A DNA stretch of 32,000 nt from Candidatus Arthromitus sp. SFB-mouse-Japan (GCF_000270205.1 NC_015913.1:390001-422000); one strand, 5' to 3'. Positions 4,852 through 21,666 are shown, counted from the first letter of the stretch. Numbers and translations are program-made. The notes: a model not told the origin generated them from the letters alone.

Positions 4852-4889
4852 ATATTTTTATATAATTATTGAATGTAGAATGATTATAT

Positions 4890-5065
4890 AGGTTAATCAA
4901 ATTTTAATTTTGGTTATTAAAAGGGAAATAGGTTAAAATCCTATACGGTCCCGCCGCCGTGATGAGGAGTGTTTATTTATATGCCACTGGATAATATCTG
5001 GGAAGGTTAATAAATGCAGAGATACTAAGTCGGAATACCTGCCTATGTAATGGGCTTATAGCTTT
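4890..5065 (+). promoter_or_regulatory. Cobalamin (B12) riboswitch aptamer
   Basis: aaagggaaataggttaaaatcctatacggtcccgccgccgtga core, gccactgg...ctgggaagg pairing block, and a B12-box aagtcggaatacctgcc at 5027-5043. It sits directly upstream of a BtuF/FecCD/ATPase operon. Confidence 0.85.
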
Positions 5066-5202: not shown

Positions 5203-6075
5203 ATGAGGCTTGTAAAAAATTTTTTAGCATTCGTAATTTTTATATTTTCATTTTCTATATTTGTTTCTTGTGGAAGAAATATAGATACAGGTATTAGTGA
5301 AAATAAGGAGATTAGAATTGTTTCCCTTGCACCTTCAAATACTGAAATATTGGTTGGTTTAGATTTGGGTAATAATATTATTGGAATTGATCAATATTCA
5401 GAAGGTATTAAGGGAGTAAGTGAAAATATTCAAGTATTTGAGATTGGTGTTCCTAATATAGAAGCGGTATTGAAATTGAATCCAACTCATTTGTTATTAT
5501 CTGGATATACATCTGATTTATCTAAGTACGTAGAGCTTGAAAATAGTGGAGTTAAGGTTATAAATATAGATACACCAACGAGTATTCAGGGAATATATGA
5601 TTCTATTGAGTTAATTGGTAAAAGTTTTAATATTGTTAGTAAGAGTAAAGAAATGATCGAATCAATTAAGAGCAGTATTGAAGATATAATTGGTAATAAT
5701 AATAGCGAGAAGGTGAGCGTTTATTTTGAAATTTCTCAGGCGCCTTATTTGTATAGTTTTGGAAGAAGTACATATTTAAATGAAATTATTGAACTATCTG
5801 GTGGGGAAAATATATTTGGAAATTTAGAAGGATGGATTTCTCCAAGTGAGGAATCAATTATAAAAGCAAATCCACAAATAATTTTTACAAATGTTAATGT
5901 AGAAAGAAATATTGATGAGATAAAAAATAGGCATGGGTGGGAAAATATAGATGCTGTAAAAAATAATAGGATTTATTATATTGATAAAGATATGTCTTCA
6001 AGAGCATCCCAATTTTTTCTAGGTGCGTTAAAGGATATTACTAGATATATAAGAGAGTATAACGATGAGGTCTAG
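5203..6075 (+). CDS. ABC transporter substrate-binding lipoprotein, BtuF/FhuD-type (likely cobalamin/corrinoid)
   Basis: Signal peptide with lipobox FVSCG. IVSLAPSNTEIL and NPQIIF blocks are typical of periplasmic-binding-protein type 2. The riboswitch lies upstream. Confidence 0.85.
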   Translation: MRLVKNFLAFVIFIFSFSIFVSCGRNIDTGISENKEIRIVSLAPSNTEILVGLDLGNNIIGIDQYSEGIKGVSENIQVFEIGVPNIEAVLKLNPTHLLLSGYTSDLSKYVELENSGVKVINIDTPTSIQGIYDSIELIGKSFNIVSKSKEMIESIKSSIEDIIGNNNSEKVSVYFEISQAPYLYSFGRSTYLNEIIELSGGENIFGNLEGWISPSEESIIKANPQIIFTNVNVERNIDEIKNRHGWENIDAVKNNRIYYIDKDMSSRASQFFLGALKDITRYIREYNDEV

Positions 6076-7084
6076 TACCTTATTTAAATTTTTATTGATA
6101 GTTATATTTTCATTTATTGTAATTATTTTAGGATTAATAATTGGCGGTGGGATAAAGAATACAGTACATATTTTTGAAATAATTTTGCATGGATTATTTG
6201 GATTAGATTTGAGAGATAGCATATCAAGTGTGGAAGTAAGCATTATTTGGAATATAAGATTCCCAAGAGTTTTATTAGCTTTTATAGTTGGAGGAATGTT
6301 GTCTATTAGTGGAGTTATTATTCAATCTGTATTAAGAAATCCTCTAGCTTCTTCATATACCATAGGTGTATCTTCAGGAGCATCTCTTGGCATTGGCATT
6401 TTTACAATATGTAATATTACATTTTTAGGATATTTTACTTATCCAGTGATTGGATTTATTTTTTCAGTTTTAACTATAATATTTGTTATTAGTTTATGTA
6501 AGAAACTCGATAGTAGTATGTCCAATAATACAATTATATTGATTGGAATGGTAATGTCTTTATTTTTAAATGCGGTTTTTATTCTTATAACATCTGTTAG
6601 GCATGAGAGTTTATCTTCTATAATTATTTGGCAACTTGGATCATTTTCATCTAGAGGATGGATATATGTCATTTCAATTATACCGTTTTTAATTATAGGA
6701 GTGTTTGGAACAATGTTTTATAGCAGAGAACTTGATATTTTAACTTTTGGAGATGATATGAGTAAAGCCGTAGGAGTTAATGTATCCAAAATAAAAATAA
6801 TCATGCTTTTATATGTGTCTATATTGACTGGAGCCAGTATTGCAGCTAGTGGAGTTATAGGTTTTGTTGATTTAGTTGTGCCTCATATATCGAGGAAAAT
6901 GTTTGGATCGGGGCATAGCGTTGTTATCTTATCTAGCTTATTTATTGGAGGAATTTTAATGGTAATTTTTGATATTATATCAAGGGTTATAATTTATCCA
7001 GCAGAAATTCCTATAGCTACGGTTAATGCTTTAATAGGAACACCTATATTTTGTTATATTTTTTTCAGAGAATATAGGAGGTAG
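6065..7084 (+). CDS. FecCD/BtuC-family ABC permease
   Basis: RFPRVLLAFIVGGMLSISGVIIQSVLRNPLASSYTIGVSSGASLG and the C-terminal PIATVNALIGTPIF are hallmark FecCD motifs. It overlaps the binding-protein gene by 11 nt. Confidence 0.9.
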   Translation: MRSSTLFKFLLIVIFSFIVIILGLIIGGGIKNTVHIFEIILHGLFGLDLRDSISSVEVSIIWNIRFPRVLLAFIVGGMLSISGVIIQSVLRNPLASSYTIGVSSGASLGIGIFTICNITFLGYFTYPVIGFIFSVLTIIFVISLCKKLDSSMSNNTIILIGMVMSLFLNAVFILITSVRHESLSSIIIWQLGSFSSRGWIYVISIIPFLIIGVFGTMFYSRELDILTFGDDMSKAVGVNVSKIKIIMLLYVSILTGASIAASGVIGFVDLVVPHISRKMFGSGHSVVILSSLFIGGILMVIFDIISRVIIYPAEIPIATVNALIGTPIFCYIFFREYRR

Positions 7085-7089
7085 TAAAA

Positions 7090-7839
7090 ATTTTAGAAGT
7101 TTCAGATTTAAGTTATTCTTATAAAAAAAATAATAAGATATTAGATAATATAAGTTTTTCGCTTAAAAGTGGTGAACATTTGAGCATAATAGGATTAAAT
7201 GGATGTGGTAAGTCAACTTTACTCAAATGTATATGTAATTTTTTGGATTATGAGGGTAGCATAAAAATTAGAGGGAAAGAAGTAAGACAAGTTAGAAATA
7301 GAGAGCTTGCTAAAAATGTTAGTATATTATTTCAACAAAATAATATGTACTTTGATTATAAGGTTTCAGATGTTATAAGGTTTGGTAGATATATTTACGA
7401 AAGATGGAATTTTAGATATGGTGATTGTGAAAATTTAGATATTATATTAAAAAATATGGGGATATATCATTTGAAAGATAGATTTATGAGTGAGCTATCT
7501 GGAGGAGAAAAGCAAAGAGTATTTATATCTAGAATTTTGTATCAAGATCCATATATAATTTTGCTCGATGAATTTAATAATAATATAGATTTAAGTACTC
7601 AAATTTACATAATAGAGAATTTTAGAGATATTTTTAAAGATAAGATTATTGTGTCAGTTTTTCATGATTTGAATTTAGTTAGAAATCTAGATAGTTTGGT
7701 AATGGTACTTAAAGATAGTAAGATTTATAAATATGGTGATGTTGACTCCATATTTAATAAAAATATTTTACAGAGTGTATATGGGGTGGATGTTCAGAAA
7801 TTTATGATAAATTCTTTTAATAAATGGAATAAAAAATAA
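7090..7839 (+). CDS. ABC transporter ATP-binding protein (start codon uncertain; ATT 7090 proposed)
   Basis: Walker A GLNGCGKS, signature LSGGEKQRV, Walker B IILLDEF, H-loop VFHD. The track ORF (TTG 7180) begins only 6 aa before Walker A. The frame is open back to the stop at 7075-7077 and encodes (V)KILEVSDLSYSY..., the usual ABC N-terminal strand. Confidence 0.8.
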   Translation: MLEVSDLSYSYKKNNKILDNISFSLKSGEHLSIIGLNGCGKSTLLKCICNFLDYEGSIKIRGKEVRQVRNRELAKNVSILFQQNNMYFDYKVSDVIRFGRYIYERWNFRYGDCENLDIILKNMGIYHLKDRFMSELSGGEKQRVFISRILYQDPYIILLDEFNNNIDLSTQIYIIENFRDIFKDKIIVSVFHDLNLVRNLDSLVMVLKDSKIYKYGDVDSIFNKNILQSVYGVDVQKFMINSFNKWNKK

Positions 7840-9333: not shown

Positions 9334-9372
9334 ATAGATCCTTATTTTTAAAGTAAGGATCTATTATTTTTT
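9334..9372 (+). terminator. Rho-independent terminator after deoD
   Basis: Perfect 11-bp stem atagatcctta / taaggatctat, 9-nt loop, T-rich tail. Confidence 0.8.
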
Positions 9373-9484
9373 AATATTCATTTAAGTAAAACTTACTATT
9401 TTAAAAATTAAGAGTGGTTATAATCAAATTAGTAAATAGGATAAATGAATTAGGAAATTGAATATGATTTGATTTATTTGGAGT

Positions 9485-10001
9485 ATGATGGATATGTTAA
9501 AAAATAAAATTAAAAATATTATGTAGGAAGTAGGTTTAGGAGTATTGATTGTATTTAGTGCAAGTAGTATAAAATCTATGGGAATGTTAATACGATGTAA
9601 GCTGTATAGGATATTACTGTAAATGAGAATTCAAATGAGTATTCGCATAAATTTGATCGAGAATATTATTATTCTGATTTTTAAAAGGAAATGTTAGATT
9701 TTAGATGTATAGATCAAGCTAAGGCAGATAGTTTTACAAAAGATATAGATTCTGAAAATATAAAAGCAGAGATTAATAATATTTATGATTTATTTATTAT
9801 TGATTTATTTGTAAAAGGGGGGTATTATACGGCAAAAATTGGAGAATTAGAGAAATGGTTAACAAAGATAAGCTATTCAGGAGATGGTAAATTATATGAA
9901 TAAATTATGAAAAATATTGTGATCTAATTGGTAAAGAAGGATTATTGATTATAGATAATTTAAATATAGCAAGTTATTTAGAAGAAGGTGTAGAAATATA
10001 G
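9485..10001 (+). pseudogene. Gene debris: decayed secreted-protein-like ORF (includes track ORF 9691..9903)
   Basis: A signal-peptide-like start MLKNKIKNIM*EVGLGVLIVFSASS is interrupted by TAG. Downstream pieces (..ITVNENSNEYSHKFDREYYYSDF*KEMLDFRC.., then ..NYEKYCDLIGKEGLLIIDNLNIASYLEEGVEI*) continue across stops and frameshifts. No family recognised. Confidence 0.3.
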
Positions 10002-10154
10002 GGTTATTTTAAAGTGATTTTAGAGAGTTTTATTTTTTATGTGAATATAGGTTATAAAATATATCATATTTTTAGGCGCATCTTAATAATAATTGATGTG
10101 TGTATTTTTATTATAAAGAGAATATATAAGCAATAAGTAGGAGCAGAATAATTA

Positions 10155-12518
10155 GTGTTGTATTTATGTAGTTTAGTAATTGCGATTATATATTTATATA
10201 TATTCTTATATATTTTTAGATATAAATTATTAGATTTTATAAAAAAATTTATATTTAGGATAGTGCCAGAATCACTTATATTAATTTATATAAGTTTTTT
10301 TATGATAAGCATAATAAATTCTAAGATAATTAATTCTCTAAGTAAAACTCAAATATATAATTTTGCTAATCAGATAAATAATATATTTTTTCATAAATTT
10401 TATAATTTAACATTGTTCGATTTTATTATAATACTTTTATGTTTTTATTTTATTATTATTATTGTGATGACTTGTCAAAAAAGGGGTTATATAAGTAAGC
10501 TTAGTTATTTAAAATGCACTGTAGTTTATAAGTATTTTACTGAGATAAAGATTATAGTTATAATATTTTATATTGTTTATCTTATATTGCTATATGTTTC
10601 AAGGGAATATTTTATATATGATTTTAAACATTATGTGGGAATATTTACAATATTTAATATATACTCTATATTGAATTTGTTTCTTATAATGACGGAACTC
10701 GAGTTTCTATTATTGCCAGATTTATTTGAAAATAAAGTGAATAAATTTAGCAAGAAAAATTTTATTAAAGATGATAATTATATTATATATGATTTTAATA
10801 TGATGTTTAATGAAAAAAAACATTTATTTATAGAATTGTGTAATTATTTAAAATATTATCATAAGGAACCATTAACTATATGTATTGATGGGGAATCAGG
10901 AGTTGGTAAGAGTACGTTTTCATACGTGTTACAAAAAGAATTGAATGATGATTATTATGTATTTAATATTAATAGTCTTATATTTACAGAGAACAATAAA
11001 TTAAATGATTATTTTAATTATATAATAGAAAATTTATTTAAGGCACATGGAATATATAATTCTAAATCTTTAAAAAACTATATGAATATAATAAATTATG
11101 TCATGAATGATAAAGTTTCCAATTTAGTTAATTATTTTATGAATGATAAAATCCAAAAAAATTATTTTGAGATAAAAGATGAAATAAACAATTGTATAGT
11201 TAAGATATTTGGAAGTGATTCTGAGGTAAAATTTAAAAAGGGAATTATATTTATAATAGATGATTTAGAAAGAATTTATAATGATTCTCAAATAGTTAAT
11301 ATATTGATTTTTTCTCAATATATATTGGGATTTGATTATATAAAATTTATTTTAGTAACAAATTTAGGAATATTAAGAAATAAGATAGATAATCAGTATT
11401 TAGATATGTTTATACACAAAATATTTAAGATAGATAGTACAAGTATTAATAGCATATTAGTTAAATATTTTGGTGAATTAATTAAGATTGAGAGATGTGA
11501 AGATAGTAGTTTAAATATAGGTAGTTGGATAACACATTTACTTGATATAGAATTTGATAAATATATAAAAGAGTTTGGAGTATATCTTTATAATAATATA
11601 AATCTGGAATATTATATATTAAAAAAGAAATGGATAGATTATAAACGAATATTATTGGAAGATTTAAGAAATGGTGGATTGATAGATAACAAGAATAATA
11701 TTGTGTTTAATTTTAATAATTCTGGATATGAAATGATAAATGAGTATTATAATTATATTTATTTTAAGAAGTCTTTTTTAGGGGATAATAGGGAAGTAAT
11801 ATTAGATAATATATATAATTTAATAAAAGAAGAATACATTAATATGGATCTATATGATGATGAACAAGTTATAGCCATATGGATATATATGGAGAAAAAT
11901 AATAAATTGTTAAATTGTATTAAATTTAATATAAATCATTATAGAGTTTATAAAAATTTAACGTTATATAAAAATAATATGAATAAGGTAAATTATTTAA
12001 TAGATTTAAAATTAGATAATAGTCCGAGAAATTTGAAGAGACAGGTGTCTTTTTTCTTATACAGCTTTGAAAAATTAGATGAATATTTGTGTAACTTAAG
12101 AAATGATAAAAATTTCTGTTACATTATAGATATAGTAAATCAGAGAGATTTTATATTATTTTTTATGGTGATATGTTTTTTTAGGATATCAAATTTTATA
12201 GTTTCTGATTTTGATGATAATAGTTTTAAATCCGATAATAATATAAATATTTTAAGTATATATAAATTTTTAGTATCTAATCATGAAACTCTTAAGGGAT
12301 ATTCTGTAAAAGGTATTATATCATTTGTGTACGATAATATAGATAAAATAGACATAGATAAGTATATAAATTTAAAAGGTTTTGATAAAGGTATAAATTA
12401 TATATATCTATGTTTTTATATACAAACGTATATATATAAAAAGTTAATATTGGAAGATGTTAACGAAGAGTCTTTTGAAATATTAATTGATTTCATATAT
12501 AATTTGATAAGTGTTTAA
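10155..12518 (+). CDS. Membrane-anchored KAP-family P-loop NTPase (uncharacterised)
   Basis: About five N-terminal TM helices (aa 1-180), Walker A IDGESGVGKST (aa 244-254), Walker B IIFIIDDLERI (aa 364-374), then IKFILVTNLGIL and YLDMFIHKIF blocks as in KAP NTPases. The C-terminal ~400 aa are unassignable. The gene is extremely AT-rich. Confidence 0.7.
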   Translation: MLYLCSLVIAIIYLYIFLYIFRYKLLDFIKKFIFRIVPESLILIYISFFMISIINSKIINSLSKTQIYNFANQINNIFFHKFYNLTLFDFIIILLCFYFIIIIVMTCQKRGYISKLSYLKCTVVYKYFTEIKIIVIIFYIVYLILLYVSREYFIYDFKHYVGIFTIFNIYSILNLFLIMTELEFLLLPDLFENKVNKFSKKNFIKDDNYIIYDFNMMFNEKKHLFIELCNYLKYYHKEPLTICIDGESGVGKSTFSYVLQKELNDDYYVFNINSLIFTENNKLNDYFNYIIENLFKAHGIYNSKSLKNYMNIINYVMNDKVSNLVNYFMNDKIQKNYFEIKDEINNCIVKIFGSDSEVKFKKGIIFIIDDLERIYNDSQIVNILIFSQYILGFDYIKFILVTNLGILRNKIDNQYLDMFIHKIFKIDSTSINSILVKYFGELIKIERCEDSSLNIGSWITHLLDIEFDKYIKEFGVYLYNNINLEYYILKKKWIDYKRILLEDLRNGGLIDNKNNIVFNFNNSGYEMINEYYNYIYFKKSFLGDNREVILDNIYNLIKEEYINMDLYDDEQVIAIWIYMEKNNKLLNCIKFNINHYRVYKNLTLYKNNMNKVNYLIDLKLDNSPRNLKRQVSFFLYSFEKLDEYLCNLRNDKNFCYIIDIVNQRDFILFFMVICFFRISNFIVSDFDDNSFKSDNNINILSIYKFLVSNHETLKGYSVKGIISFVYDNIDKIDIDKYINLKGFDKGINYIYLCFYIQTYIYKKLILEDVNEESFEILIDFIYNLISV

Positions 12519-12556
12519 AAACAGAGTAACTATTTTTATGTAGTTACTCTGTTTTT
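12517..12556 (+). terminator. Rho-independent terminator after the KAP NTPase gene
   Basis: Perfect 16-bp stem aaaaacagagtaacta / tagttactctgttttt with an 8-nt loop, overlapping the stop codon. Confidence 0.85.
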
Positions 12557-12678
12557 ATATTATTTAATTTTTTGTACTCAATGATTAAATTATTTTCCTA
12601 AAAATTAATAAGTAATGAGTTTAAATTAGTATATAAATTTATTGATTTTCACAAAATATATTATAGCCTTTTAATTTC

Positions 12679-13560
12679 ATGGGAGAAGTATTGATTGTTA
12701 TGGGACTTAATATTTTGGATAAATTAATAGAATATGCTATAATAGATATCTTTGAGGATACTAAGCTTAAAATTTTGGGTTTTCCATATAAATGTAAGTT
12801 TGTAAAGAGGAGAGAACAAGATAGTTTTTACATAAAAGATGCAGTGCTTAATTTTACTATGATGACTCAAAAAAATAAAATTGTACATTTTGAGTTCAAA
12901 AAAGAGTATTTTTACAATGATATATATAAATTTTTGGTGTATTCATCGTTTCTTATATATGAAAATAAGTATGATTATGAATTAGTTTTAGTTTATCCAC
13001 ATAGGTCTCGTAAAATAGTAAAAAATATGGCATTTACTTCTTTAAGGTTTTTTTATACAGATGTGTATTTAGATTGTTTTAATGGAGATAAGATTTTAAT
13101 GAGATTGTCCGCTAAGGCATCTAAAAAGAAGAAATTTACTGATGAAGAGTATTTGATACTTTCCCTTACTCCATATATGTATTCAAAGAGGGAAAAAATA
13201 ACATTGATACTTGAAGGATTACGAGTAGCTAATGATTTAAATACAAAAAAAAAACACAGTATAATTATAATAATTTTAGTTTTAGCAGAGTGTTTTTTGG
13301 ATGAATCAGATATGTATAAAATAAAGAAGGAGGTAAAGATGTATAAGATTGGAAAAATGATATTTGAAGAGGGAATAAAAAGTGCATCTAGTGATGTTGA
13401 AAGAGAAATTTCTGGTAAAATGATACAGAAAGGCAAAAATCAGGCAAAGGTAGAGTTTGCAGTTGAGATGATGAAAAATAAGGAAGAGTTAAATAAGATT
13501 ATTAAGTATACTGGTTTTACTAAGAAAGAACTTGAAAAAATTTATTATACATTTAAATAA
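12679..13560 (+). CDS. Rpn/YhgA-like PD-(D/E)XK nuclease-family protein (putative transposase/recombination-promoting nuclease family)
   Basis: IKDAVL...KIVHFEFKKE gives a D...ExK arrangement. The layout then follows Rpn/TIGR01784-like proteins, including the C-terminal EEGIKSA...GKNQAKVEFAVEMMKNKEELNKIIKYTGFTKKELEKI tail (compare E/G-rich repeat + 'TGLS..EIE.L'). The start could also be ATG 12700. Confidence 0.55.
   Translation: MGEVLIVMGLNILDKLIEYAIIDIFEDTKLKILGFPYKCKFVKRREQDSFYIKDAVLNFTMMTQKNKIVHFEFKKEYFYNDIYKFLVYSSFLIYENKYDYELVLVYPHRSRKIVKNMAFTSLRFFYTDVYLDCFNGDKILMRLSAKASKKKKFTDEEYLILSLTPYMYSKREKITLILEGLRVANDLNTKKKHSIIIIILVLAECFLDESDMYKIKKEVKMYKIGKMIFEEGIKSASSDVEREISGKMIQKGKNQAKVEFAVEMMKNKEELNKIIKYTGFTKKELEKIYYTFK
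13339..13560 (+). CDS. Candidate internally initiated small protein (C-terminal 73 aa of the Rpn-like ORF)
   Basis: gaaggaggt (13326-13334) lies 5 nt upstream of the in-frame ATG 13339. This is the strongest SD in the gene and sits at the boundary of the C-terminal tail domain. Confidence 0.3.
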   Translation: MYKIGKMIFEEGIKSASSDVEREISGKMIQKGKNQAKVEFAVEMMKNKEELNKIIKYTGFTKKELEKIYYTFK

Positions 13561-15706: not shown

Positions 15707-15828
15707 GCAAAATGGTTCTCATATTAATTTTTAGTGTTATATTCCTTTTGTTGTTTTTGATTATTTATATCTTTAAAGTTAATTTAAGGTTAATTATACA
15801 TACTTCATTACATAGAGGAGTGAGCTTA

Positions 15829-16560
15829 ATGAAAACTTTTATGAGATATGAAAAAAAGTATATGTTAAATGAGGAAAAGTATTCATGTTTAATGGATGTT
15901 TTTGAAAGTCAGATGGAAGACGATATTTTTTCAAGATCTAGTATATGTAATATATACTTTGATACACCGAATTTTGAGTTAATAAGAAATTCTTTAGATA
16001 AGCCAGTTTATAAGGAAAAGCTCAGAATGAGGAGTTACGGAGTTCCAGATGAAGATGGATATGTGTTTATTGAACTTAAGAAAAAGTATAATGGTATTGT
16101 CTATAAAAGACGTGAAAAAATGAATATATATGATGCGGAAAATTATCTTTATTTTAATAATTATCCTGAAAGTGATACTCAAGTAATTAGAGAGATAGAT
16201 TGGGTATTAAATTATTATAAAAGTATAATGCCTAAGATGTATATTTCTTATGATAGAATTGCTATGCGAGGTATTTATGATGATGATTTAAGGATTACTT
16301 TTGATAAAAATATTTTATATAGAGATGATTGCCTTGATCTTAAAAGCGGAATATGGGGAGATAGGGTAATTAGAGAAGATGAATATTTGATGGAAATAAA
16401 GATTACTGGTGGAATGCCTCTTTGGCTCTGTAGAATTTTAAATGATTTAGGTATTTATCCTATTTCTTTTTCTAAGTATGGTGTTGCTTATCAAATTAAA
16501 GAAGGGTATAGAAACAGTATTGGGAGTGTTTCTCCATATATTGGTGGATTTGCTTGTTAA
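15829..16560 (+). CDS. VTC-domain (polyphosphate-polymerase-like, CYTH-superfamily) protein
   Basis: aggag RBS then ATG 15829. MKTFMRYEKKYML, KEKLRMRSY, FIELKKK and YLMEIK are strand motifs typical of bacterial VTC-domain proteins. The 39-aa N-terminal extension in the track ORF is probably spurious. Confidence 0.8.
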   Translation: MKTFMRYEKKYMLNEEKYSCLMDVFESQMEDDIFSRSSICNIYFDTPNFELIRNSLDKPVYKEKLRMRSYGVPDEDGYVFIELKKKYNGIVYKRREKMNIYDAENYLYFNNYPESDTQVIREIDWVLNYYKSIMPKMYISYDRIAMRGIYDDDLRITFDKNILYRDDCLDLKSGIWGDRVIREDEYLMEIKITGGMPLWLCRILNDLGIYPISFSKYGVAYQIKEGYRNSIGSVSPYIGGFAC

Positions 16561-16590
16561 AAAATTTAATTTAAGGAGAGTGTTGATGGA

Positions 16591-17280
16591 ATGTTTGATT
16601 GGTTTTTTAATTCTATTTTGATTGGGAACGCATCGAGTAGTGTTTCAGGTAAAAATATTTTAATTTGTATGGCTGTGTCACTTGTTCTTGGATTTTGTAT
16701 TGCTTATATATATATGTTTAAAAACGTTTATTCTAAAGGGTTTATAGTAACGTTAACACTCATGCCTGCTATTGTACAATTGGTTATTATGCTTGTTAAT
16801 GGTAATTTAGGGGCTGGAGTTGCTGTTACTGGAGCATTTTCACTCGTTAGATTTAGATCAGCACCTGGGAGTGCTAAAGAAATAATTAGTATATTTCTAG
16901 CTATGGCAGTTGGTCTTGCAACTGGTATGGGATATATTGGAGTTGCTGTTTTATTTGTCATTGTAATGGGGATTTTAAATATTATATTGAATGCGACAAA
17001 ATTCGGTGAAGGTCCACCACGCCAAAAGACACTTAAGATAACTATTCCTGAATCGCTTGATTATACAAATATTTTTGATGATATATTTACTAAATATTTA
17101 AAGAACTGGGAGATTTATCAAGTTAGAAGTATTAATATGGGGAGTTTATTTAAGATAGAGTATAAAGTAGTTATAAAAAATTCTATAAATGAGAAACAGA
17201 TGATTGATGATATCAGATGTAGGAATGGAAATTTAGAGATTATGATTGGTAAGAATTTACCTTCTAGGGAGGAGTTATAA
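16591..17280 (+). CDS. DUF4956 membrane protein
   Basis: Three or four TM helices with GAFSLVRFRSAPGSAKEI and a soluble C-terminal domain. It is the usual partner downstream of bacterial VTC-domain genes. Confidence 0.75.
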   Translation: MFDWFFNSILIGNASSSVSGKNILICMAVSLVLGFCIAYIYMFKNVYSKGFIVTLTLMPAIVQLVIMLVNGNLGAGVAVTGAFSLVRFRSAPGSAKEIISIFLAMAVGLATGMGYIGVAVLFVIVMGILNIILNATKFGEGPPRQKTLKITIPESLDYTNIFDDIFTKYLKNWEIYQVRSINMGSLFKIEYKVVIKNSINEKQMIDDIRCRNGNLEIMIGKNLPSREEL

Positions 17281-17284
17281 TATT

Positions 17285-19051
17285 ATGAGAAAATCTAATA
17301 AATTAATGCAAGCAGTTATGGCCGGTATTTTATTATTTACATTTAGTGGATGTGCGACTAATAGTGTTAGTTCAGCCACTAATTCATCTCAAAATGTATC
17401 AAGTGAAAATACTAATGGTTCTTCAACAAATTCGACGCCAACAAATCCAAGTACAGCTTCAGGTGTAACAACACTTACTCAATCTGTGATAAGTAAGGAA
17501 CTTAAGTCTAAAGATTATGAAATTGATTATGATGAGAATTCTTCTACTAAAATTAATTTATTAAATGATCAGATAAATTTTAGTGGTGATGGAGTTTTGG
17601 TTAAAGATAAAACTGTTACTATTAATAAAGCTGGTACTTATATTATAGATGGAAATTTGGAGAATGGTCAGATAATTGTTGATGTTGATAAAACAGAGGA
17701 TGTTAGAATTGTTTTAAATGGTGTTAATATCCATAATGAATCTAGTACAGCTATTTATGTTAAGAGTGCAGATAAGCTTGTTATGACTTTGAAAGAGGGA
17801 ACTATAAATACATTGAGTGGTGGAGATAATTACATAAATATAGATGATAATAATATTGATGGGGTTATATTCAGTAAAGATGATTTAACTATAAATGGTA
17901 ATGGTCAACTTAATCTGACTTCTAATTATAAGCATGCTATAGTATCTAAAAATGATTTAAATATTGTTTCTGGTATATTTAACATAGTATCTGCAGATCA
18001 AGGTCTTTCTGGTAAAGATTCTGTGAGAATCTACGGAGGAGTGTTTAATATAAAATCAAATGGTCAAGGAATTAGGAGTAAAAATGAGGAAGAGCTAGAG
18101 AAGGGGAATATTTATATTGCTGGAGGTAATTTTGAAATTGAAAGTGTGCAGGATGCTATGAATGCAACAGGAAGTGTTGTTATAGATGATGGTGTTTTCA
18201 ATATTAAAACAGATGATGATGGAATACATGCAGACGTTGAAGCTGTAATTAATTCAGGAGACATAAATATTTTGGAATCTTATGAAGGTATTGAAGGATA
18301 TAGGGTAATTATAAATGGAGGGAATATTAATATTTCATCAAGTGATGATGGTATTAATGCATCTAATCCTAATGTAACGAGTAATGAACCAGCAGGTGGG
18401 CGTAATTTGCCACAAGGAAATAATAGTACTGATGTAACCAATACTTTAAATAATAATCCTGCACCCCCAAATGATGGAATGATGAGAAATGGAGGAGGGA
18501 GAGGACCAATGATGGCTGATGAGAATGTTTATATAACAATTAATGATGGTAATATAGTTATAGATGCTCAAGGAGATGGTATTGATTCAAATGGTAATAT
18601 AACAATTAATAATGGTAATATTTTGGTATCATCTAAATCAGATAATGGAGAGAATGCACTTGATTATGATGGCAATATTACGATAAATGGTGGAATTTTG
18701 ATTGGTGTTGGGGGGTCTCCTATGCATCAAAATTTAAATGAGAATTCCAGTCAACCAAGTATATCTTATAATGTATCGAATGGTAATGGGAATGATGTGG
18801 AACTTAAGGATTCGAATTCCAATGTTATAGTTTCTTGGAAGGCTCCAAAAACATATAATTCTATATTTATAACTCATCCAAGTTTAAAATTAAATGAAAA
18901 ATATACTTTGGTATCAGGTACAGAGAGTATAGACATTACGATTGATAATCTTCTTACAACAAATATAACACGAGGAAGTGGCGGACGAGGACAAAGACCA
19001 CCGCGTTCAGAAGAATTTCAACCATCAATGGAACCGACTAATGTACAATAA
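17285..19051 (+). CDS. Secreted lipoprotein with a Cthe_2159-like carbohydrate-binding beta-helix domain
   Basis: ATG 17285, signal peptide with lipobox FSGC, an S/T/N-rich linker, then repeated beta-helix rungs (VRIVLNGVNIHNESSTAIYV, LTINGNGQLNLTS, GIHAD, GINAS, GIDSNGNITINNGNILV). Confidence 0.7.
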   Translation: MRKSNKLMQAVMAGILLFTFSGCATNSVSSATNSSQNVSSENTNGSSTNSTPTNPSTASGVTTLTQSVISKELKSKDYEIDYDENSSTKINLLNDQINFSGDGVLVKDKTVTINKAGTYIIDGNLENGQIIVDVDKTEDVRIVLNGVNIHNESSTAIYVKSADKLVMTLKEGTINTLSGGDNYINIDDNNIDGVIFSKDDLTINGNGQLNLTSNYKHAIVSKNDLNIVSGIFNIVSADQGLSGKDSVRIYGGVFNIKSNGQGIRSKNEEELEKGNIYIAGGNFEIESVQDAMNATGSVVIDDGVFNIKTDDDGIHADVEAVINSGDINILESYEGIEGYRVIINGGNINISSSDDGINASNPNVTSNEPAGGRNLPQGNNSTDVTNTLNNNPAPPNDGMMRNGGGRGPMMADENVYITINDGNIVIDAQGDGIDSNGNITINNGNILVSSKSDNGENALDYDGNITINGGILIGVGGSPMHQNLNENSSQPSISYNVSNGNGNDVELKDSNSNVIVSWKAPKTYNSIFITHPSLKLNEKYTLVSGTESIDITIDNLLTTNITRGSGGRGQRPPRSEEFQPSMEPTNVQ

Positions 19052-19090
19052 AAGAGAGTAAGAATTTTTCTTACTCTCTTTTATTTTTTA
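19051..19090. terminator. Bidirectional terminator between convergent genes
   Basis: Perfect 13-bp stem aaagagagtaaga / tcttactctcttt with a 5-nt loop, flanked by A- and T-runs. It overlaps both stop codons. Confidence 0.85.
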
Positions 19091-21666
19091 TGGGTAAAAG
19101 CTTTTAATAATTCGCTTATTATAAATGGTATTAAAGATAAGATTATTGATATAATCCAATCATTTGTGCTTAGATTTTGAGTGTTGAAGAATGAATTAAA
19201 TGATGGGATTTTTATTAAAATTATCTGTATAATTACCCCAAGTAATATTGAGTAAATGAGTTTCATATTTGAAAATAATCCTATCTTAAATAAATATTCT
19301 TTTTCAGAGCGTATGCTTAAAGATAGAAATAATTGAGAAAATGATAAAACTATGAATGCCATACTTTGGGCATATATGAGATTTACTTTTTTATATCTAG
19401 TTAAGAAGGATGTTATACTTACAATTCCAATTATGAATCCATTTAAGATTAGTTTAATTATATTTGATTTTGAAATCAAATTTTTGTTACCTTTTCTGGG
19501 TTTATTATTCATTATATTTTTGTCGTAAGTATCAACGCCAAGGCTAAGAGCAGGTAGAGAATCTGTTATTAGATTTATCCATAATAAATGTATAGGACTT
19601 AATGGTACTGGAAATTTAAATAAAATTGATATAAAAATTGTTAATATTTCTCCAAGATTACATGTTAATAGAAATATTATAGATTTTTTTATGTTGTTAA
19701 ATATGTTTCTTCCTTCTTCAACTGCTGTAATTATAGTTTTAAAATTATCATCTGTAAGTATAATATCCGATGCGTTTTTACAAACATCCGTTCCAGTTAT
19801 ACCCATAGCGATACCAACATCGGCCATTTTAAGTGAAGGTGCATCATTTACTCCATCTCCAGTCATAGATACTATATTTCCAACTGATTTTAGAGCCCTA
19901 ACGATCTTAACTTTATGTTCTGGAGAAACCCGCGCAAATATAGTTACGTTTTTAATTTTATTATTTAATTCATCATCTGTTAGTTTATCTATTTCAGATC
20001 CAAGCATAGTCTCACTAATATCATTGGCTATATTAAGTTCTTTGCCAATGGCAAAAGCTGTATTTTTATGATCACCGGTAATCATAATTGTTTTTATTCC
20101 TGATCTTTTTGCAATTTCTATGGATTGTTTGACCTCTTTTCTAGGAGGATCGATCATTCCAACCATTCCAAGGAATATTAGGTTATTTTCATAATTATCT
20201 TTAGTTAAATTTATAATTTCTTTGTATGCAAATGCAAGGGTTCTTAATGCACTATTTGCCATTTCTTCGGCTGTATTTAGTATGTTGTTTCTTATATCAT
20301 CAGTTAATTCTACGATTTCACCTTTTATGGAAATTTTATCACATAGATTAAGAAGATTATCGAGTGCCCCTTTTGTAAATGAGTAGAAAATATCATGAAT
20401 ATTGTTTACTGTAGTCATTAATTTTCTATCGGAGTCAAATGGTATCTCTCGTATTCTTTTGAAGGTATCATTTTCTATATTTTTGCCAGCGAATTTAAGA
20501 AGTGCAATTTCTGTAGGATCACCTACCTCTTCATCGTTAGAGTAACTTGCATCATTACATAGAGTCATACTTCTTATAAATAATTTTTTGGTGTTATCAT
20601 CATTTTTAAACTCTCGAGCGTCAAACTTTGAATTATTTATGAAATATTCTATAACTGTCATTTTATTTACGGTAAGTGTTCCAGTTTTATCTGAACAAAT
20701 AATATTGACAGATCCTAAGGTTTCAACAGATGAGAGCTTTCTTATGATTGCATTTTTTTTGATCATCTTTTGTACTCCAAGAGCTAAAACTATAGCAACA
20801 ATAGTAGAAAGACCTTCGGGTATGGCAGCTACAGCTAAAGATATTGCGATGAAGAATATATCAAATAATTTATTACCTTGTATAAGCCCAACAATCATAA
20901 TGATAATACATATTATAATTGTAAGAATTCCAATATTTTTCCCAAGGATATTTAATTTTTTTTGGAGGGGTGTAAGTTCATTTTTTGAGTTATTTAGAAA
21001 AGAGGCTATTTTACCTATCTCTGTGTTCATTCCTGTTGAAACTACAATTCCTTCTCCCCGTCCATATGTAACTATAGTTGACATATATCCTATATTTTTT
21101 CTATCTGCTATTGGGATAGATTCATTATTTGAGATTATATTAGTGTTTTTTTCTGTTGGAAGAGATTCGCCAGTTAGGGCAGATTCATCAACTTTAAGAT
21201 TCACACATTCAAAGAATCTAATATCAGCAGGTATTATTCTGCCAGCATCAAGTATAATAATGTCTCCAACCACTAAATCTTTTGAACTTATTTCAATAAT
21301 TTTATTATCACGTTTAACAATAGCTTTTGGAGATGATAGATTTTTTAATGCTTCAAGGGACTTTTCAGCTTTATTTTCTTGGATGATTCCTATAGTTGCG
21401 TTTAAGATAATAACAATGAATATTATTATACTTTCTTCAGGCTCTCCGAGGAAAAATGATATTATACCAGTTAGTATTAAAATGTAGACTAAAATGTTAT
21501 TTATTTGATCAAATATAAGTTTGATTAGGCTCCTCTTTGACCCTTCAGTTAATTCGTTTTTACCATTTTCATTTAAAAGTTTAGAGGCACAGGAGTTAGA
21601 TAGGCCTGTTTTTATATTTGTATTTAGGGTTTTTGATATATCTTCAATTGATTTTGAGTGCCACAT
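19081..21666 (-). CDS. Cation-translocating P-type ATPase, type IIA (Ca2+-ATPase-like)
   Basis: TGES, IPEGL (TM4), phosphorylation site ICSDKTGTLT, MITGDH, TGDGVNDAPSL, and WINLITDSLPALSLG (TM6) typical of Ca2+ pumps. Confidence 0.9.
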   Translation of the reverse strand: MWHSKSIEDISKTLNTNIKTGLSNSCASKLLNENGKNELTEGSKRSLIKLIFDQINNILVYILILTGIISFFLGEPEESIIIFIVIILNATIGIIQENKAEKSLEALKNLSSPKAIVKRDNKIIEISSKDLVVGDIIILDAGRIIPADIRFFECVNLKVDESALTGESLPTEKNTNIISNNESIPIADRKNIGYMSTIVTYGRGEGIVVSTGMNTEIGKIASFLNNSKNELTPLQKKLNILGKNIGILTIIICIIIMIVGLIQGNKLFDIFFIAISLAVAAIPEGLSTIVAIVLALGVQKMIKKNAIIRKLSSVETLGSVNIICSDKTGTLTVNKMTVIEYFINNSKFDAREFKNDDNTKKLFIRSMTLCNDASYSNDEEVGDPTEIALLKFAGKNIENDTFKRIREIPFDSDRKLMTTVNNIHDIFYSFTKGALDNLLNLCDKISIKGEIVELTDDIRNNILNTAEEMANSALRTLAFAYKEIINLTKDNYENNLIFLGMVGMIDPPRKEVKQSIEIAKRSGIKTIMITGDHKNTAFAIGKELNIANDISETMLGSEIDKLTDDELNNKIKNVTIFARVSPEHKVKIVRALKSVGNIVSMTGDGVNDAPSLKMADVGIAMGITGTDVCKNASDIILTDDNFKTIITAVEEGRNIFNNIKKSIIFLLTCNLGEILTIFISILFKFPVPLSPIHLLWINLITDSLPALSLGVDTYDKNIMNNKPRKGNKNLISKSNIIKLILNGFIIGIVSITSFLTRYKKVNLIYAQSMAFIVLSFSQLFLSLSIRSEKEYLFKIGLFSNMKLIYSILLGVIIQIILIKIPSFNSFFNTQNLSTNDWIISIILSLIPFIISELLKAFTHKK

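What the first reader, a model, noticed from the sequence alone, without database searches (positions are those of the whole stretch)
10155..12518. Uncharacterised membrane-anchored KAP-family P-loop NTPase (787 aa)
**Seen:**
- The first ~180 aa form about five hydrophobic helices: LYLCSLVIAIIYLYIFLYIF, LILIYISFFMISII, FDFIIILLCFYFIIIIVMT, IIVIIFYIVYLILLYV and GIFTIFNIYSILNLFLIMT.
- Next come Walker A IDGESGVGKST (aa 244-254, nt ~10884-10916), Walker B IIFIIDDLERI (aa 364-374) and the IKFILVTNLGIL / YLDMFIHKIF blocks.
- A further hydrophobic stretch, FILFFMVICFFRISNFIV, lies in the last quarter.
- The C-terminal ~400 aa match nothing I recognise.

**Established:** G-x-(W)-G-x-GKS plus hhhhDDL(D/E)R plus a 'YLEKhh' block defines KAP P-loop NTPases (Aravind et al. 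2004). Members of that family are membrane-associated, sporadically distributed and mostly of unknown function.

**Inference:**
- The TM helices form a separate N-terminal module instead of being inserted in the NTPase core.
- The gene is compositionally foreign and sits beside a nuclease-family gene.
- It is therefore a candidate single-protein membrane NTPase sensor/effector (abortive infection or defence, or exclusion of incoming DNA) rather than a housekeeping enzyme.
Basis: partly seen in the sequence, partly recalled or inferred. Interest (0 to 1): 0.7.

Follow-up and report, generated by a model that had tools for sequence, protein, structure and literature searches.

The report
Membrane-anchored KAP ATPase fixed in SFB
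The gene is real and encodes a very diverged membrane-anchored ATPase of the KAP family, but it is an old, stably inherited gene found only in segmented filamentous gut bacteria, not a recently acquired defence gene, and its job is still unknown.

Summary
The window comes from a mouse segmented filamentous bacterium (SFB, Candidatus Arthromitus).

- **KAP membership holds, but only at family level.** The window protein has no Pfam KAP hit. Its 86% and 66% identical orthologues pass PF07693, and a profile of 13 orthologues matches bona fide KAP proteins (hhalign 99%, E 7e-18).
- **Architecture.** Five N-terminal TM helices (N-out, ATPase cytoplasmic), a KAP core with intact catalytic motifs, a helical insert of about 170 aa, an invariant (N/S)PRNLKR motif, and a helical tail with no fold match.
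- **The "foreign defence gene" inference is not supported.** Low GC (18.5%) comes from codon positions 1 and 2. GC3 equals that of the neighbours, and all orthologues share the low GC.
- **The gene is fixed.** It lies between deoD and the same downstream gene in every SFB lineage sampled, under purifying selection (dN/dS 0.03-0.23).
- **The flanks are housekeeping genes.** The "nuclease" neighbour is only weakly Rpn-like, is separately transcribed, and is frameshifted in rat SFB.

Full-length relatives exist only in SFB. The cellular role is unresolved. I favour a clade-specific membrane function (about 0.55) over conserved anti-phage defence (about 0.3).

The parts
9334..9364 (+). Intrinsic terminator of the upstream deoD (purine nucleoside phosphorylase) gene. 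It marks the 5' boundary of the KAP transcription unit.
   Evidence: Terminator scan: 14-pair stem followed by a T-run; 2 sites found against 0.1 expected. The region is conserved with SFB-rat.
10029..10154 (+). Conserved 5' region (probable promoter and 5'UTR), including the Shine-Dalgarno AGGAG at 10139-10143.
   Evidence: About 84% identical to the 127 bp directly upstream of the SFB-rat orthologue, whereas 9370-10030 has no counterpart there. Sequence read.
10155..12518 (+). Complete CDS of 787 aa: a membrane-anchored KAP-family P-loop NTPase.
10155..10703 (+). N-terminal module of five TM helices (aa 2-20, 36-59, 87-105, 131-149, 161-183). Predicted N-terminus outside, C-terminus inside.
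   Evidence: - Hydropathy peaks of 2.0-3.05.
- K/R-rich loops at aa 21-35 (5 K/R), 106-122 (4 K/R) and after TM5 (5 K/R).
- K/R-poor loops at aa 60-76 and 150-160.
- The same five peaks occur in the orthologues.
- The predicted outer loops are strongly conserved, for example SREYFIY at aa 149-155.
10704..10835 (+). Conserved juxtamembrane linker, aa 184-227 (FIKDxNYxIYDFxMMFxEKKxLFxE).
   Evidence: Dense run of invariant columns from F203 to E227.
10836..11489 (+). KAP NTPase core, aa 228-445, including the helical insertion between Walker A and Walker B.
   Evidence: - Pfam PF07693 matches orthologue P0003 over aa 228-466.
- hhalign against bona fide KAPs covers aa 216-439, probability 99%.
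- Best PDB fold hits are RdrA; 8fnu_A was deposited as 'KAP NTPase domain-containing protein'.
10890..10913 (+). Walker A, GESGVGKS (aa 246-253).
   Evidence: G246, G249, G251 and K252 are invariant; residue 253 is S or T.
11244..11273 (+). Walker B, IIFIIDDLER (aa 364-373).
   Evidence: D369, D370 and E372 are invariant. The motif aligns to hhhhDDLDR of KAP proteins.
11340..11363 (+). Putative sensor-1 strand, IKFILVTN (aa 396-403).
   Evidence: T402 and N403 are nearly invariant, absent only from the deletion variant P0002. The sensor-1 assignment is inferred from position in the P-loop fold.
11397..11426 (+). YLDMFIHKIF block (aa 415-424), the KAP 'YL(D/E)Khh' motif.
   Evidence: Aligns with YLDKF / YLEKF of P0015 and P0018.
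11490..11999 (+). SFB-specific, mostly alpha-helical insert (aa 446-615) between the KAP core and the lid motif.
   Evidence: - The best-predicted part of both AF2 models (pLDDT 75-89 over roughly aa 490-610).
- No homologue outside SFB.
- No PDB fold match.
- dN/dS 0.10-0.24.
12021..12041 (+). (N/S)PRNLKR motif (aa 623-629), the probable KAP C-terminal NPRxxKR (arginine/sensor-2-type) motif.
   Evidence: P624-Q630 are invariant. The motif is collinear with NPRTMKR of P0016 and NPRRLKR of P0015. The local profile alignment is weak, E 0.015.
12150..12206 (+). Hydrophobic helix, aa 666-684. Either a buried lid helix or a sixth TM helix; unresolved.
   Evidence: Hydropathy 2.2. Only 11 uninterrupted apolar residues lie between D665 and R/K/Q677. 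Predicted helical.
12207..12515 (+). C-terminal helical tail (aa 685-787) of unknown fold.
   Evidence: Conserved (dN/dS 0.09-0.16). No homologue outside SFB. No fold match.
12516..12557 (+). Intrinsic terminator overlapping the stop codon, so the gene is monocistronic.
   Evidence: 18-pair stem followed by a T-run; sequence read.

Best explanation
**What it is.** The gene encodes a highly diverged member of the KAP P-loop NTPase family. It is vertically inherited, restricted to the SFB clade, and has been fixed at one chromosomal position since before the mouse, rat and poultry SFB lineages split.

**Anatomy (shown or predicted from sequence)**
- Five N-terminal TM helices place a short N-terminus outside and everything after about aa 184 in the cytoplasm.
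- A strongly conserved juxtamembrane linker leads into a KAP ATPase core with intact Walker A (K252), Walker B (D369/D370/E372), a probable sensor-1 (N403) and an invariant (N/S)PRNLKR.
- An alpha-helical insert of about 170 aa and a helical tail of about 160 aa are unique to the clade.

**Mechanism (inferred from family behaviour, not shown here)**
- The cytoplasmic KAP domains bind and hydrolyse ATP, probably as an oligomer. RdrA, the solved KAP-type ATPase, forms heptameric rings.
- The helical C-terminal regions act as the regulatory or partner-binding part.
- The nucleotide state is passed through the conserved linker to the 5-TM bundle, whose conserved outward-facing loops contact something outside the membrane.

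**Role**
- Its fixation, housekeeping flanks and ordinary purifying selection make a clade-specific cellular function at the membrane or envelope more likely than a mobile defence function.
- It is not a recently acquired island gene, and it is not part of a two-gene system with its neighbour.
For: **Identity**
- Orthologues pass PF07693.
- Family profile against bona fide KAPs: 99%, E 6.6e-18.
- The four real outside hits of an exhaustive phmmer search are all KAP proteins.
- Top PDB fold hits are RdrA, which depositors name a KAP NTPase.

**Active enzyme**
- Catalytic residues are invariant.
- dN/dS is 0.03-0.10 within the poultry lineage and 0.10-0.23 between lineages. Every region of the protein is constrained.

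**Topology**
- Hydropathy plus the positive-inside rule, repeated in the orthologues.

**Vertical inheritance**
- The order B12-type ABC transporter, deoD, KAP, 286-293-aa gene and then two-component system (deoxynucleoside kinase before deoD; dNK and the two-component system missing in L002, dNK missing in L016) is kept in mouse, rat (complete genome AP012210), chicken/turkey and four further MAG lineages.
- GC3 equals that of the neighbours, and all orthologues share the low GC.
- KAP dN/dS is similar to that of the flanking ABC-transporter genes, 0.20-0.27.

**Clade restriction**
- Only 13 full-length clusters were found among 5.8 billion proteins, all SFB, with single-sequence and profile queries alike.

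**Independence from the neighbour**
- A terminator lies between them, another gene intervenes in poultry SFB, and the neighbour is frameshifted in rat SFB.
Against: - No experiment or expression data exist for this gene.
- The window protein itself fails Pfam KAP at E<=1, so membership rests on orthologues and profiles.
- AF2 models are low-confidence (pLDDT 56 and 61). Oligomerisation and TM coupling are therefore analogy only.
- Most characterised bacterial KAP proteins are defence proteins: PifA, RdrA, QatA, EF_KAP and three others (PMC13552941, PMC13001434). The family prior therefore favours defence.
- SFB genomes carry prophages and CRISPR, so they do face phages (PMC3158464).
- In a reduced, IS-free genome even a defence gene could stay fixed.
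- A mouse-SFB metagenome assembly carries an in-frame 183-bp deletion that removes the sensor-1 region. If real, the ATPase is dispensable in that population.
Confidence: 0.55

Rival explanations
1. It is a single-protein anti-phage (or anti-plasmid) defence system of the TM + KAP + unknown-C-terminus type. The C-terminal helical region senses an infection cue. ATP hydrolysis by the KAP core then activates the 5-TM module to perturb the membrane or exclude incoming DNA. The gene would have become fixed in SFB because the clade has a small, stable genome.
For: - EF_KAP (TM helices + KAP + 322-aa region of unknown function) and three other KAP fusions protect against phages in a Walker-B-dependent way (PMC13552941, read).
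- PifA is a KAP exclusion protein, and Tmn is a membrane P-loop NTPase defence protein (PMC13001434).
- Weak PADLOC hits: VakA at E 6e-6 in 10 of 13 orthologues, and PifA at E 0.0016 in 3 of 13.
- The closest fold matches are the RADAR defence ATPase RdrA.
- SFB carry prophages and CRISPR.
- A possible loss-of-function deletion variant exists.
- One outside relative (P0015) sits among genes typical of mobile elements.
Against: - Present in every SFB lineage sampled at the same locus, with no presence/absence variation.
- Flanks are nucleoside salvage, a B12-type transporter, a solute-binding protein and a two-component system. No recombinase and no known defence gene are nearby.
- No region of the protein shows elevated dN/dS, as a fast-evolving sensor might.
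- The PADLOC matches cover only the Walker A region, aa 242-329.
- GC3 is native.
- Another outside relative (P0018) also lies in a housekeeping context, next to hprK-lgt.
Confidence: 0.3
2. It is a decaying or functionless relic whose extreme I/N/K/Y/F composition reflects drift towards AT rather than function.
For: - GC is 18.5%, with alanine and proline each at 0.5% of residues.
- The window protein has no direct Pfam hit.
- An in-frame deletion variant exists in one assembly.
- From my own recollection of Aravind et al. 2004 (paper not held), bacterial KAP genes often undergo disruption; P0019 appears to be split into two ORFs.
Against: - The reading frame of about 785 aa is intact in all lineages.
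- dN/dS is 0.03-0.23 across all regions.
- Catalytic motifs are invariant.
- The Shine-Dalgarno sequence and 5' region are conserved between mouse and rat SFB.
Confidence: 0.04
3. It is a generic P-loop or AAA-type ATPase that resembles KAP only through its Walker motifs.
For: The window protein's own Pfam hits are AAA_18, RNA_helicase, NACHT and similar families, all below their cutoffs and all centred on Walker A.
Against: - The profile alignment to KAP proteins spans 224 columns. It includes the Walker A-B helical insertion and the YLDKF block.
- Two orthologues exceed the PF07693 cutoff by more than 20 bits.
- All true distant hits are KAP proteins.
- The NPRxxKR motif is collinear with that of KAP proteins.
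Confidence: 0.03

Closest known systems
KAP family P-loop NTPases (Pfam PF07693; Kidins220/ARMS and PifA)
   Same: - Walker A, hhhhDDLxR Walker B, the helical insertion between them, the YL(D/E)Khh block and a terminal NPRxxKR all occur in the same order.
- Orthologues pass the Pfam model.
- The protein is membrane-associated.
   Different: - The tryptophan of GxWGxGK is replaced by S, G or C.
- The TM helices form a separate 5-helix N-terminal module rather than an insertion in the domain.
- An insert of about 170 aa lies before the NPR motif.
- Sequence divergence is so strong that the window protein itself misses the Pfam model.
- The gene is fixed and vertically inherited in one clade, not sporadic or plasmid-borne.
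EF_KAP and related KAP fusions (single-gene anti-phage proteins; PLoS Biol 2026, PMC13552941)
   Same: The overall plan matches: TM helix or helices, then a KAP NTPase, then a C-terminal region of about 320 aa with no recognisable domain or structural match (here).
   Different: - EF_KAP has two TM helices, one N-terminal and one inside the KAP domain. This protein has five, all N-terminal.
- The EF_KAP group was found next to small serine recombinases on mobile DNA. This gene sits in fixed housekeeping synteny.
- Sequence relatedness could not be tested because the EF_KAP sequence is not held.
RdrA of the RADAR defence system (PDB 8fnu, 8fnt, 8hr8)
   Same: It is the best structural match for the full-length model (E 6e-3, probability 0.98). 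RdrA is the solved KAP-type ATPase that the KAP reference profile also detects.
   Different: - RdrA is soluble, works with the deaminase RdrB and forms heptameric rings.
- TM-scores are only about 0.17, from a model with pLDDT 56.
- No RdrB-like gene lies nearby.
[quoted passage not shown]
   Same: [quoted passage not shown] ATP turnover is coupled to a membrane effect.
   Different: - It belongs to a different P-loop family (YobI).
- Its two TM helices are inserted inside the P-loop domain.
- No PADLOC Tmn model matched the window protein.
N-terminal-TM KAP proteins of other Firmicutes (P0018, P0019, and the P0015 locus)
   Same: - These are the closest non-SFB relatives: 24-32% identity over the core, E 1e-9 to 3e-4.
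- They also carry three or so TM helices N-terminal to the KAP core, or in a separate upstream ORF, plus long C-terminal regions.
   Different: The TM modules and C-terminal regions are not detectably homologous to the SFB ones; the hhalign match is limited to the core. Their contexts vary: housekeeping for P0018 and mobile-element-like for P0015.

Membership tests
KAP P-loop NTPase (PF07693) | Significant match to the family model. | tested here: met
   - The window protein alone has no hit at E<=1.
- Orthologues P0003 (86% identical; 42.9 bits, E 4.9e-11) and P0004 (46 bits) exceed the 20-bit cutoff.
- The 13-sequence family profile against four bona fide KAP proteins gives hhalign 99%, E 6.6e-18 over 224 columns.
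KAP P-loop NTPase (PF07693) | Walker A of the form G-x-W-G-x-GK[ST]. | tested here: met
   GESGVGKS at aa 246-253; the G, G, G and K positions are invariant. The W position is S, G or C in this family, a departure from the consensus as I recall it from Aravind et al. 2004 (paper not held).
KAP P-loop NTPase (PF07693) | Walker B hhhhDDL(D/E)R. | tested here: met
   IIFIIDDLER at aa 364-373; D369, D370 and E372 are invariant. It aligns to the Walker B of KAP proteins.
KAP P-loop NTPase (PF07693) | Helical insertion between Walker A and B, and the YL(D/E)Khh block after sensor 1. | tested here: met
   Both regions fall inside the high-confidence hhalign alignment. LNDYFNxIIENLFKAHGIY matches L.TYFFGQLE.LLKE.GIY, and YLDMFIHKIF matches YLDKFI.
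KAP P-loop NTPase (PF07693) | C-terminal NPRxxKR motif closing the domain. | tested here: inconclusive
   An invariant (N/S)PRNLKR at aa 623-629 is collinear with NPRTMKR and NPRRLKR in P0016 and P0015. The local profile alignment reaches only E 0.015.
KAP P-loop NTPase (PF07693) | TM helices inserted within the NTPase domain. As I recall from Aravind et al. 2004 (paper not held), this holds for eukaryotic and some bacterial members; it is not universal, and PifA lacks TM helices (PMC13001434). | tested here: not met
   No TM-grade hydropathy peak lies between aa 190 and 660, apart from a 1.67 peak on the beta-strand region at aa 383-401. All five clear TM helices are N-terminal.
Single-gene KAP anti-phage defence (EF_KAP type) | Location in defence islands or mobile elements (recombinase-linked), with variable presence among strains. 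| tested here: not met
   The position is fixed between deoD and the 286-293-aa gene in all lineages. The flanks are housekeeping genes.
Single-gene KAP anti-phage defence (EF_KAP type) | Architecture of TM + KAP + C-terminal region without a known domain. | tested here: met
   Five TM helices, a KAP core, and a C-terminal 340 aa with no sequence or PDB fold match.
Single-gene KAP anti-phage defence (EF_KAP type) | Walker-motif-dependent protection against phage. | not testable with these tools
   This needs heterologous expression and phage challenge.
PifA (F-plasmid T7 exclusion) | Match to the PADLOC PifA model. | tested here: not met
   The window protein has no PifA hit. Three of 13 orthologues hit at E 0.0016 at best.
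Tmn / YobI family | Two TM helices inserted in the P-loop domain after Walker A, and a match to the family model. | tested here: not met
   There is no TM segment between Walker A and B, and no Tmn hit in PADLOC.
Rpn / PD-(D/E)xK nuclease (the neighbour gene 12679-13560) | Significant match to an Rpn or PDDEXK model. | tested here: inconclusive
   - TIGR01784: E 0.002, 18 bits against a cutoff of 52, C-terminal part only.
- No nuclease-family Pfam hit for the protein or for 9 family members.
- PDB RpnA C-terminal fragment: E 0.46.
- A D...E-F-K pattern with H64-F65-E66-F67-K68 invariant is compatible with PD-(D/E)xK, but this is read by eye only.

The most novel reading that the evidence does not exclude
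A family best known for sporadic, mobile, defence-type NTPases has been captured and fixed as a core gene of one host-attached bacterial clade. It is fused to a clade-specific 5-TM module whose outward-facing loops are as conserved as the ATPase. The protein would then act as an ATP-driven transmembrane switch in SFB-specific biology, such as envelope remodelling during filament segmentation, or holdfast or intracellular-offspring formation. Alternatively it would be a new kind of membrane-effector immunity that is permanently built into the clade.
Probability: 0.2. Interest if true: 0.65.

Novelty: new variant of a known kind. Interest (0 to 1): 0.4.

Why it matters
SFB are important immunomodulatory gut symbionts with small genomes and an unusual life cycle, and very few of their clade-specific genes have a proposed function. 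This 787-aa protein is one of those clade-specific core genes.

Knowing that it is an intact membrane-anchored KAP ATPase gives a testable handle: Walker mutants, topology mapping and interaction partners.

It also offers a counter-example to the view that bacterial KAP NTPases are sporadic, mobile defence genes. That matters because KAP fusions have only recently been validated as anti-phage proteins.

As it stands, the finding is a well-characterised orphan rather than a new system.

Tried and rejected
- **Genome contigs, single protein.** The first scan found nothing. The alignment-based scan found three loci.
- **Search for relatives outside SFB.** The profile search with the 13-sequence family alignment returned only the same 13 SFB clusters. 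The exhaustive phmmer search gave four true outside hits, all limited to the P-loop core, plus one spurious RTX protein.
- **PDB sequence search.** The family profile gave only Walker-A-level noise.
- **hhalign beyond the core.** No alignment to P0018's TM or C-terminal regions.
- **Literature.** Aravind et al. 2004 is not held, so its family definition is cited from memory and from quotations in PMC13001434 and PMC13552941. A search for 'VakA' gave nothing relevant. 'SFB + P-loop' gave nothing.
- **Promoter scan.** Uninformative in 20% GC DNA: 42 sites found against 47 expected.
- **Rejected: recent horizontal acquisition.** See GC3 and orthologue GC, and synteny.
- **Rejected: an operon or two-gene system with the Rpn-like neighbour.**
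- **Rejected: RNA element upstream.** Rfam found only a cobalamin riboswitch elsewhere in the window.
Full report
**1.
- ORF 10155-12518 (+) encodes 787 aa from a GTG start. AGGAG lies at 10139-10143.
- A strong intrinsic terminator at 12516-12557 overlaps the stop codon. A second one (9334-9364) closes the upstream deoD gene. Two such sites were found against 0.1 expected, so the gene is its own transcription unit.
They are invariant or nearly so across 13 orthologues that are otherwise only 56-66% identical.
- Orthologues start with ATG at the homologous codon. This supports the 10155 start over an internal GTG used by some gene callers (P0001, 751 aa).

**2. Source organism and distribution.**
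- The nearest named protein is 'P-loop NTPase fold protein [Candidatus Arthromitus sp. SFB-rat-Yit]' at 86% identity.
- A mouse-gut MAG is 99.9% identical at the DNA level. The window is therefore mouse segmented filamentous bacterium.
- Full-length relatives are confined to this clade. Thirteen 90%-identity clusters were found among 5.8 billion proteins, with single-sequence and profile queries alike.
- An exhaustive phmmer scan of 1.84 billion representatives found four real outside relatives. All match only aa ~214-481.

**3. Family assignment.**
- The window protein gets no Pfam KAP_NTPase hit at E<=1, only Walker-A-centred matches below their cutoffs.
- Its orthologues P0003 and P0004 score 42.9 and 46 bits against PF07693, whose cutoff is 20 bits.
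- The four outside relatives (P0015, P0016, P0018, P0019) are all bona fide KAP proteins at 53-137 bits.
- A profile of the 13 SFB proteins aligns to a profile of those four with 99% probability, E 6.6e-18, over 224 columns. The alignment covers Walker A, the helical insertion, Walker B and the YLDKF block.
- An invariant (N/S)PRNLKR at aa 623-629 is collinear with the NPRxxKR that ends the KAP domain in P0015 and P0016. That local alignment alone is weak, E 0.015.
- An AF2 model of the whole protein is poor (pLDDT 56). Its top PDB matches are nevertheless all RdrA of RADAR (E 6e-3, probability 0.98). One RdrA entry is deposited as 'KAP NTPase domain-containing protein', and the KAP reference profile also finds it.
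- I conclude that this is a very diverged KAP NTPase. The divergence largely reflects an extreme composition: I 15.9%, N 10.8%, Y 9.1%, K 9.0%, F 8.9%, and A and P 0.5% each.

**4. Architecture.**
- Hydropathy gives five clear TM helices at aa 2-20, 36-59, 87-105, 131-149 and 161-183.
- Loops at aa 21-35, aa 106-122 and after TM5 carry 4-5 K/R each. Loops at aa 60-76 and 150-160 are K/R-poor. The positive-inside rule therefore predicts N-out and C-in, with the ATPase in the cytoplasm.
- The same pattern recurs in the orthologues.
- The predicted outer loops (for example SLSKT...NQIN...FHKFY and SREYFIY) and the juxtamembrane linker (aa 184-227) are as conserved as the ATPase motifs.
- The architecture is not unique. 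The closest outside relatives also carry about three TM helices N-terminal to the KAP core (P0018, P0019), or in an ORF just upstream (the P0015 locus). Those TM modules are not detectably homologous to the SFB one.
- Between the core and the NPR motif lies a mainly helical insert of about 170 aa. It is the best-predicted part of both models, with pLDDT 75-89.
- The hydrophobic stretch at aa 666-684 has only 11 uninterrupted apolar residues between D665 and R/K/Q677. It may be a buried lid helix rather than a sixth TM helix; this is unresolved.
- The C-terminal 342 aa have no PDB fold match and no sequence relatives outside SFB.

**5. The 'foreign gene' inference fails.**
- The gene is indeed 18.5% GC against 28% for the window.
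- GC3 is 0.157, inside the neighbours' range of 0.15-0.27. The deficit lies in codon positions 1 and 2.
- Orthologues in three other lineages are also 18-20% GC against 26-28% flanks.

**6. Synteny is fixed.**
- The shared order is B12-type ABC transporter, deoD, KAP, a 286-293-aa gene and then an OmpR-type two-component system, with a deoxynucleoside kinase before deoD in most lineages.
- This order is found in mouse, rat (complete genome AP012210), chicken/turkey SFB from many samples, and four further MAG lineages.
- Departures: L002 has no dNK match, and a DUF327 gene follows its 286-293-aa gene instead of the two-component system. L016 has no dNK gene called.
- Every contig retrieved through the neighbour protein also carried the ~787-aa gene, complete or cut by the contig end.
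- Other local differences are a solute-binding-protein gene on the opposite strand in poultry lineages and a mouse-specific insertion of about 660 bp upstream.

**7. Selection.**
- Nei-Gojobori dN/dS is 0.03-0.10 among closely related poultry strains, where dS is 0.005-0.035.
- It is 0.10-0.23 between lineages, where dS is about 1 and near saturation.
- These values resemble the flanking FecCD and ABC-ATPase genes (0.20-0.27) and exceed deoD (0.07-0.12).
- Every region of the protein is constrained, with no fast-evolving segment.

**8. The neighbour is not a partner.**
- The 293-aa gene belongs to an SFB-only family.
- Its only nuclease link is a sub-threshold C-terminal match to the Rpn family (TIGR01784, E 0.002), plus an E 0.46 match to an RpnA fragment. 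There is no nuclease-family Pfam hit.
- A terminator separates it from the KAP gene. In poultry SFB another gene intervenes.
- It is frameshifted in SFB-rat while the KAP gene there is intact.

**9. Function.**
- *Shown:* an intact, constrained, membrane-anchored KAP ATPase gene fixed in one clade.
- *Inferred from family behaviour:* ATP-dependent, probably oligomeric switching, with helical C-terminal regions as the regulatory part and the TM module as the output or input.
- *Precedent:* PifA, RdrA, EF_KAP and three other KAP fusions are anti-phage proteins, and Tmn is a mechanistic analogue from another P-loop family. SFB carry prophages and CRISPR. Defence is therefore plausible a priori.
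- *Against a defence role at this locus:* fixation, housekeeping flanks, native GC3, no accelerated region, and only Walker-A-level PADLOC matches.
- *My weighting:* about 0.55 for a clade-specific membrane or envelope function, about 0.3 for a conserved single-protein defence, and the rest for minor alternatives.
- *A caveat:* a 183-bp in-frame deletion that removes the sensor-1 region occurs in one mouse-gut MAG. If real, the ATPase is dispensable there, which fits a non-essential role.

**10. Novelty.**
- KAP identity is already implicit in database annotation of the orthologues.
- TM + KAP + unknown-C-terminus proteins were described in 2026.
- What is new is a distinct, clade-restricted variant with a 5-TM N-terminal module, a 170-aa insert and an orphan tail. 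It is inherited as a core gene rather than sporadically.
- Interest is moderate.

Noticed in passing
window 9370-10030: About 660 bp between deoD and the KAP gene have no counterpart in rat or poultry SFB, where the spacer is about 90-290 bp. The segment includes a 70-aa ORF (9691-9903) with no family match, which was called as a gene in a mouse MAG. Its origin is unknown, and no flanking repeats of note were found.
   Followed up: partly
window 11307-11481 (L020, MAG GCA_949439845.1): A 99.9%-identical mouse-gut assembly carries an in-frame 183-bp deletion in the KAP gene (protein P0002, 726 aa). It removes aa ~384-444, including the sensor-1 strand and the YLDMF block. This could be a real loss-of-function variant or an assembly artefact.
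   Followed up: partly
L014 7521-8398 (SFB-rat-Yit AP012210); equivalent to window 12679-13560: The conserved 293-aa neighbour gene is split by a frameshift at about residue 190 in the rat SFB genome. The adjacent KAP gene is intact there.
   Followed up: yes
window 4873-5060: A cobalamin riboswitch (RF00174, 106.8 bits) lies upstream of the Peripla_BP_2/FecCD/ABC ATPase transporter genes at 5203-7839. The transporter is therefore probably a B12-type uptake system.
   Followed up: no
L001 84-1109 vs L003 6664-7689: The FecCD permease genes of two otherwise well-diverged SFB lineages are 98% identical (dS 0.02), whereas adjacent genes differ at dS about 0.6-1.1. This suggests recent recombination between lineages or a chimeric MAG.
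   Followed up: no
L001 5823-6629, L003 12402-13205, L004-L010: Poultry-type SFB lineages carry an amino-acid solute-binding-protein gene (SBP_bac_3) on the opposite strand between the KAP gene and the 286-aa gene. It is absent from mouse, rat and two other lineages.
   Followed up: partly
L011 1243-3988: A distant N-terminal-TM KAP relative (P0019, 371 aa) is followed by an overlapping 554-aa coiled-coil-rich ORF. It looks like one gene of about 915 aa split by a frameshift.
   Followed up: no
window 15712-19051: Downstream of the two-component system lies a conserved VTC / DUF4956 / Cthe_2159 trio. A P-type cation ATPase follows on the minus strand (19081-21666), which accounts for the local dip in GC skew.
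   Followed up: no
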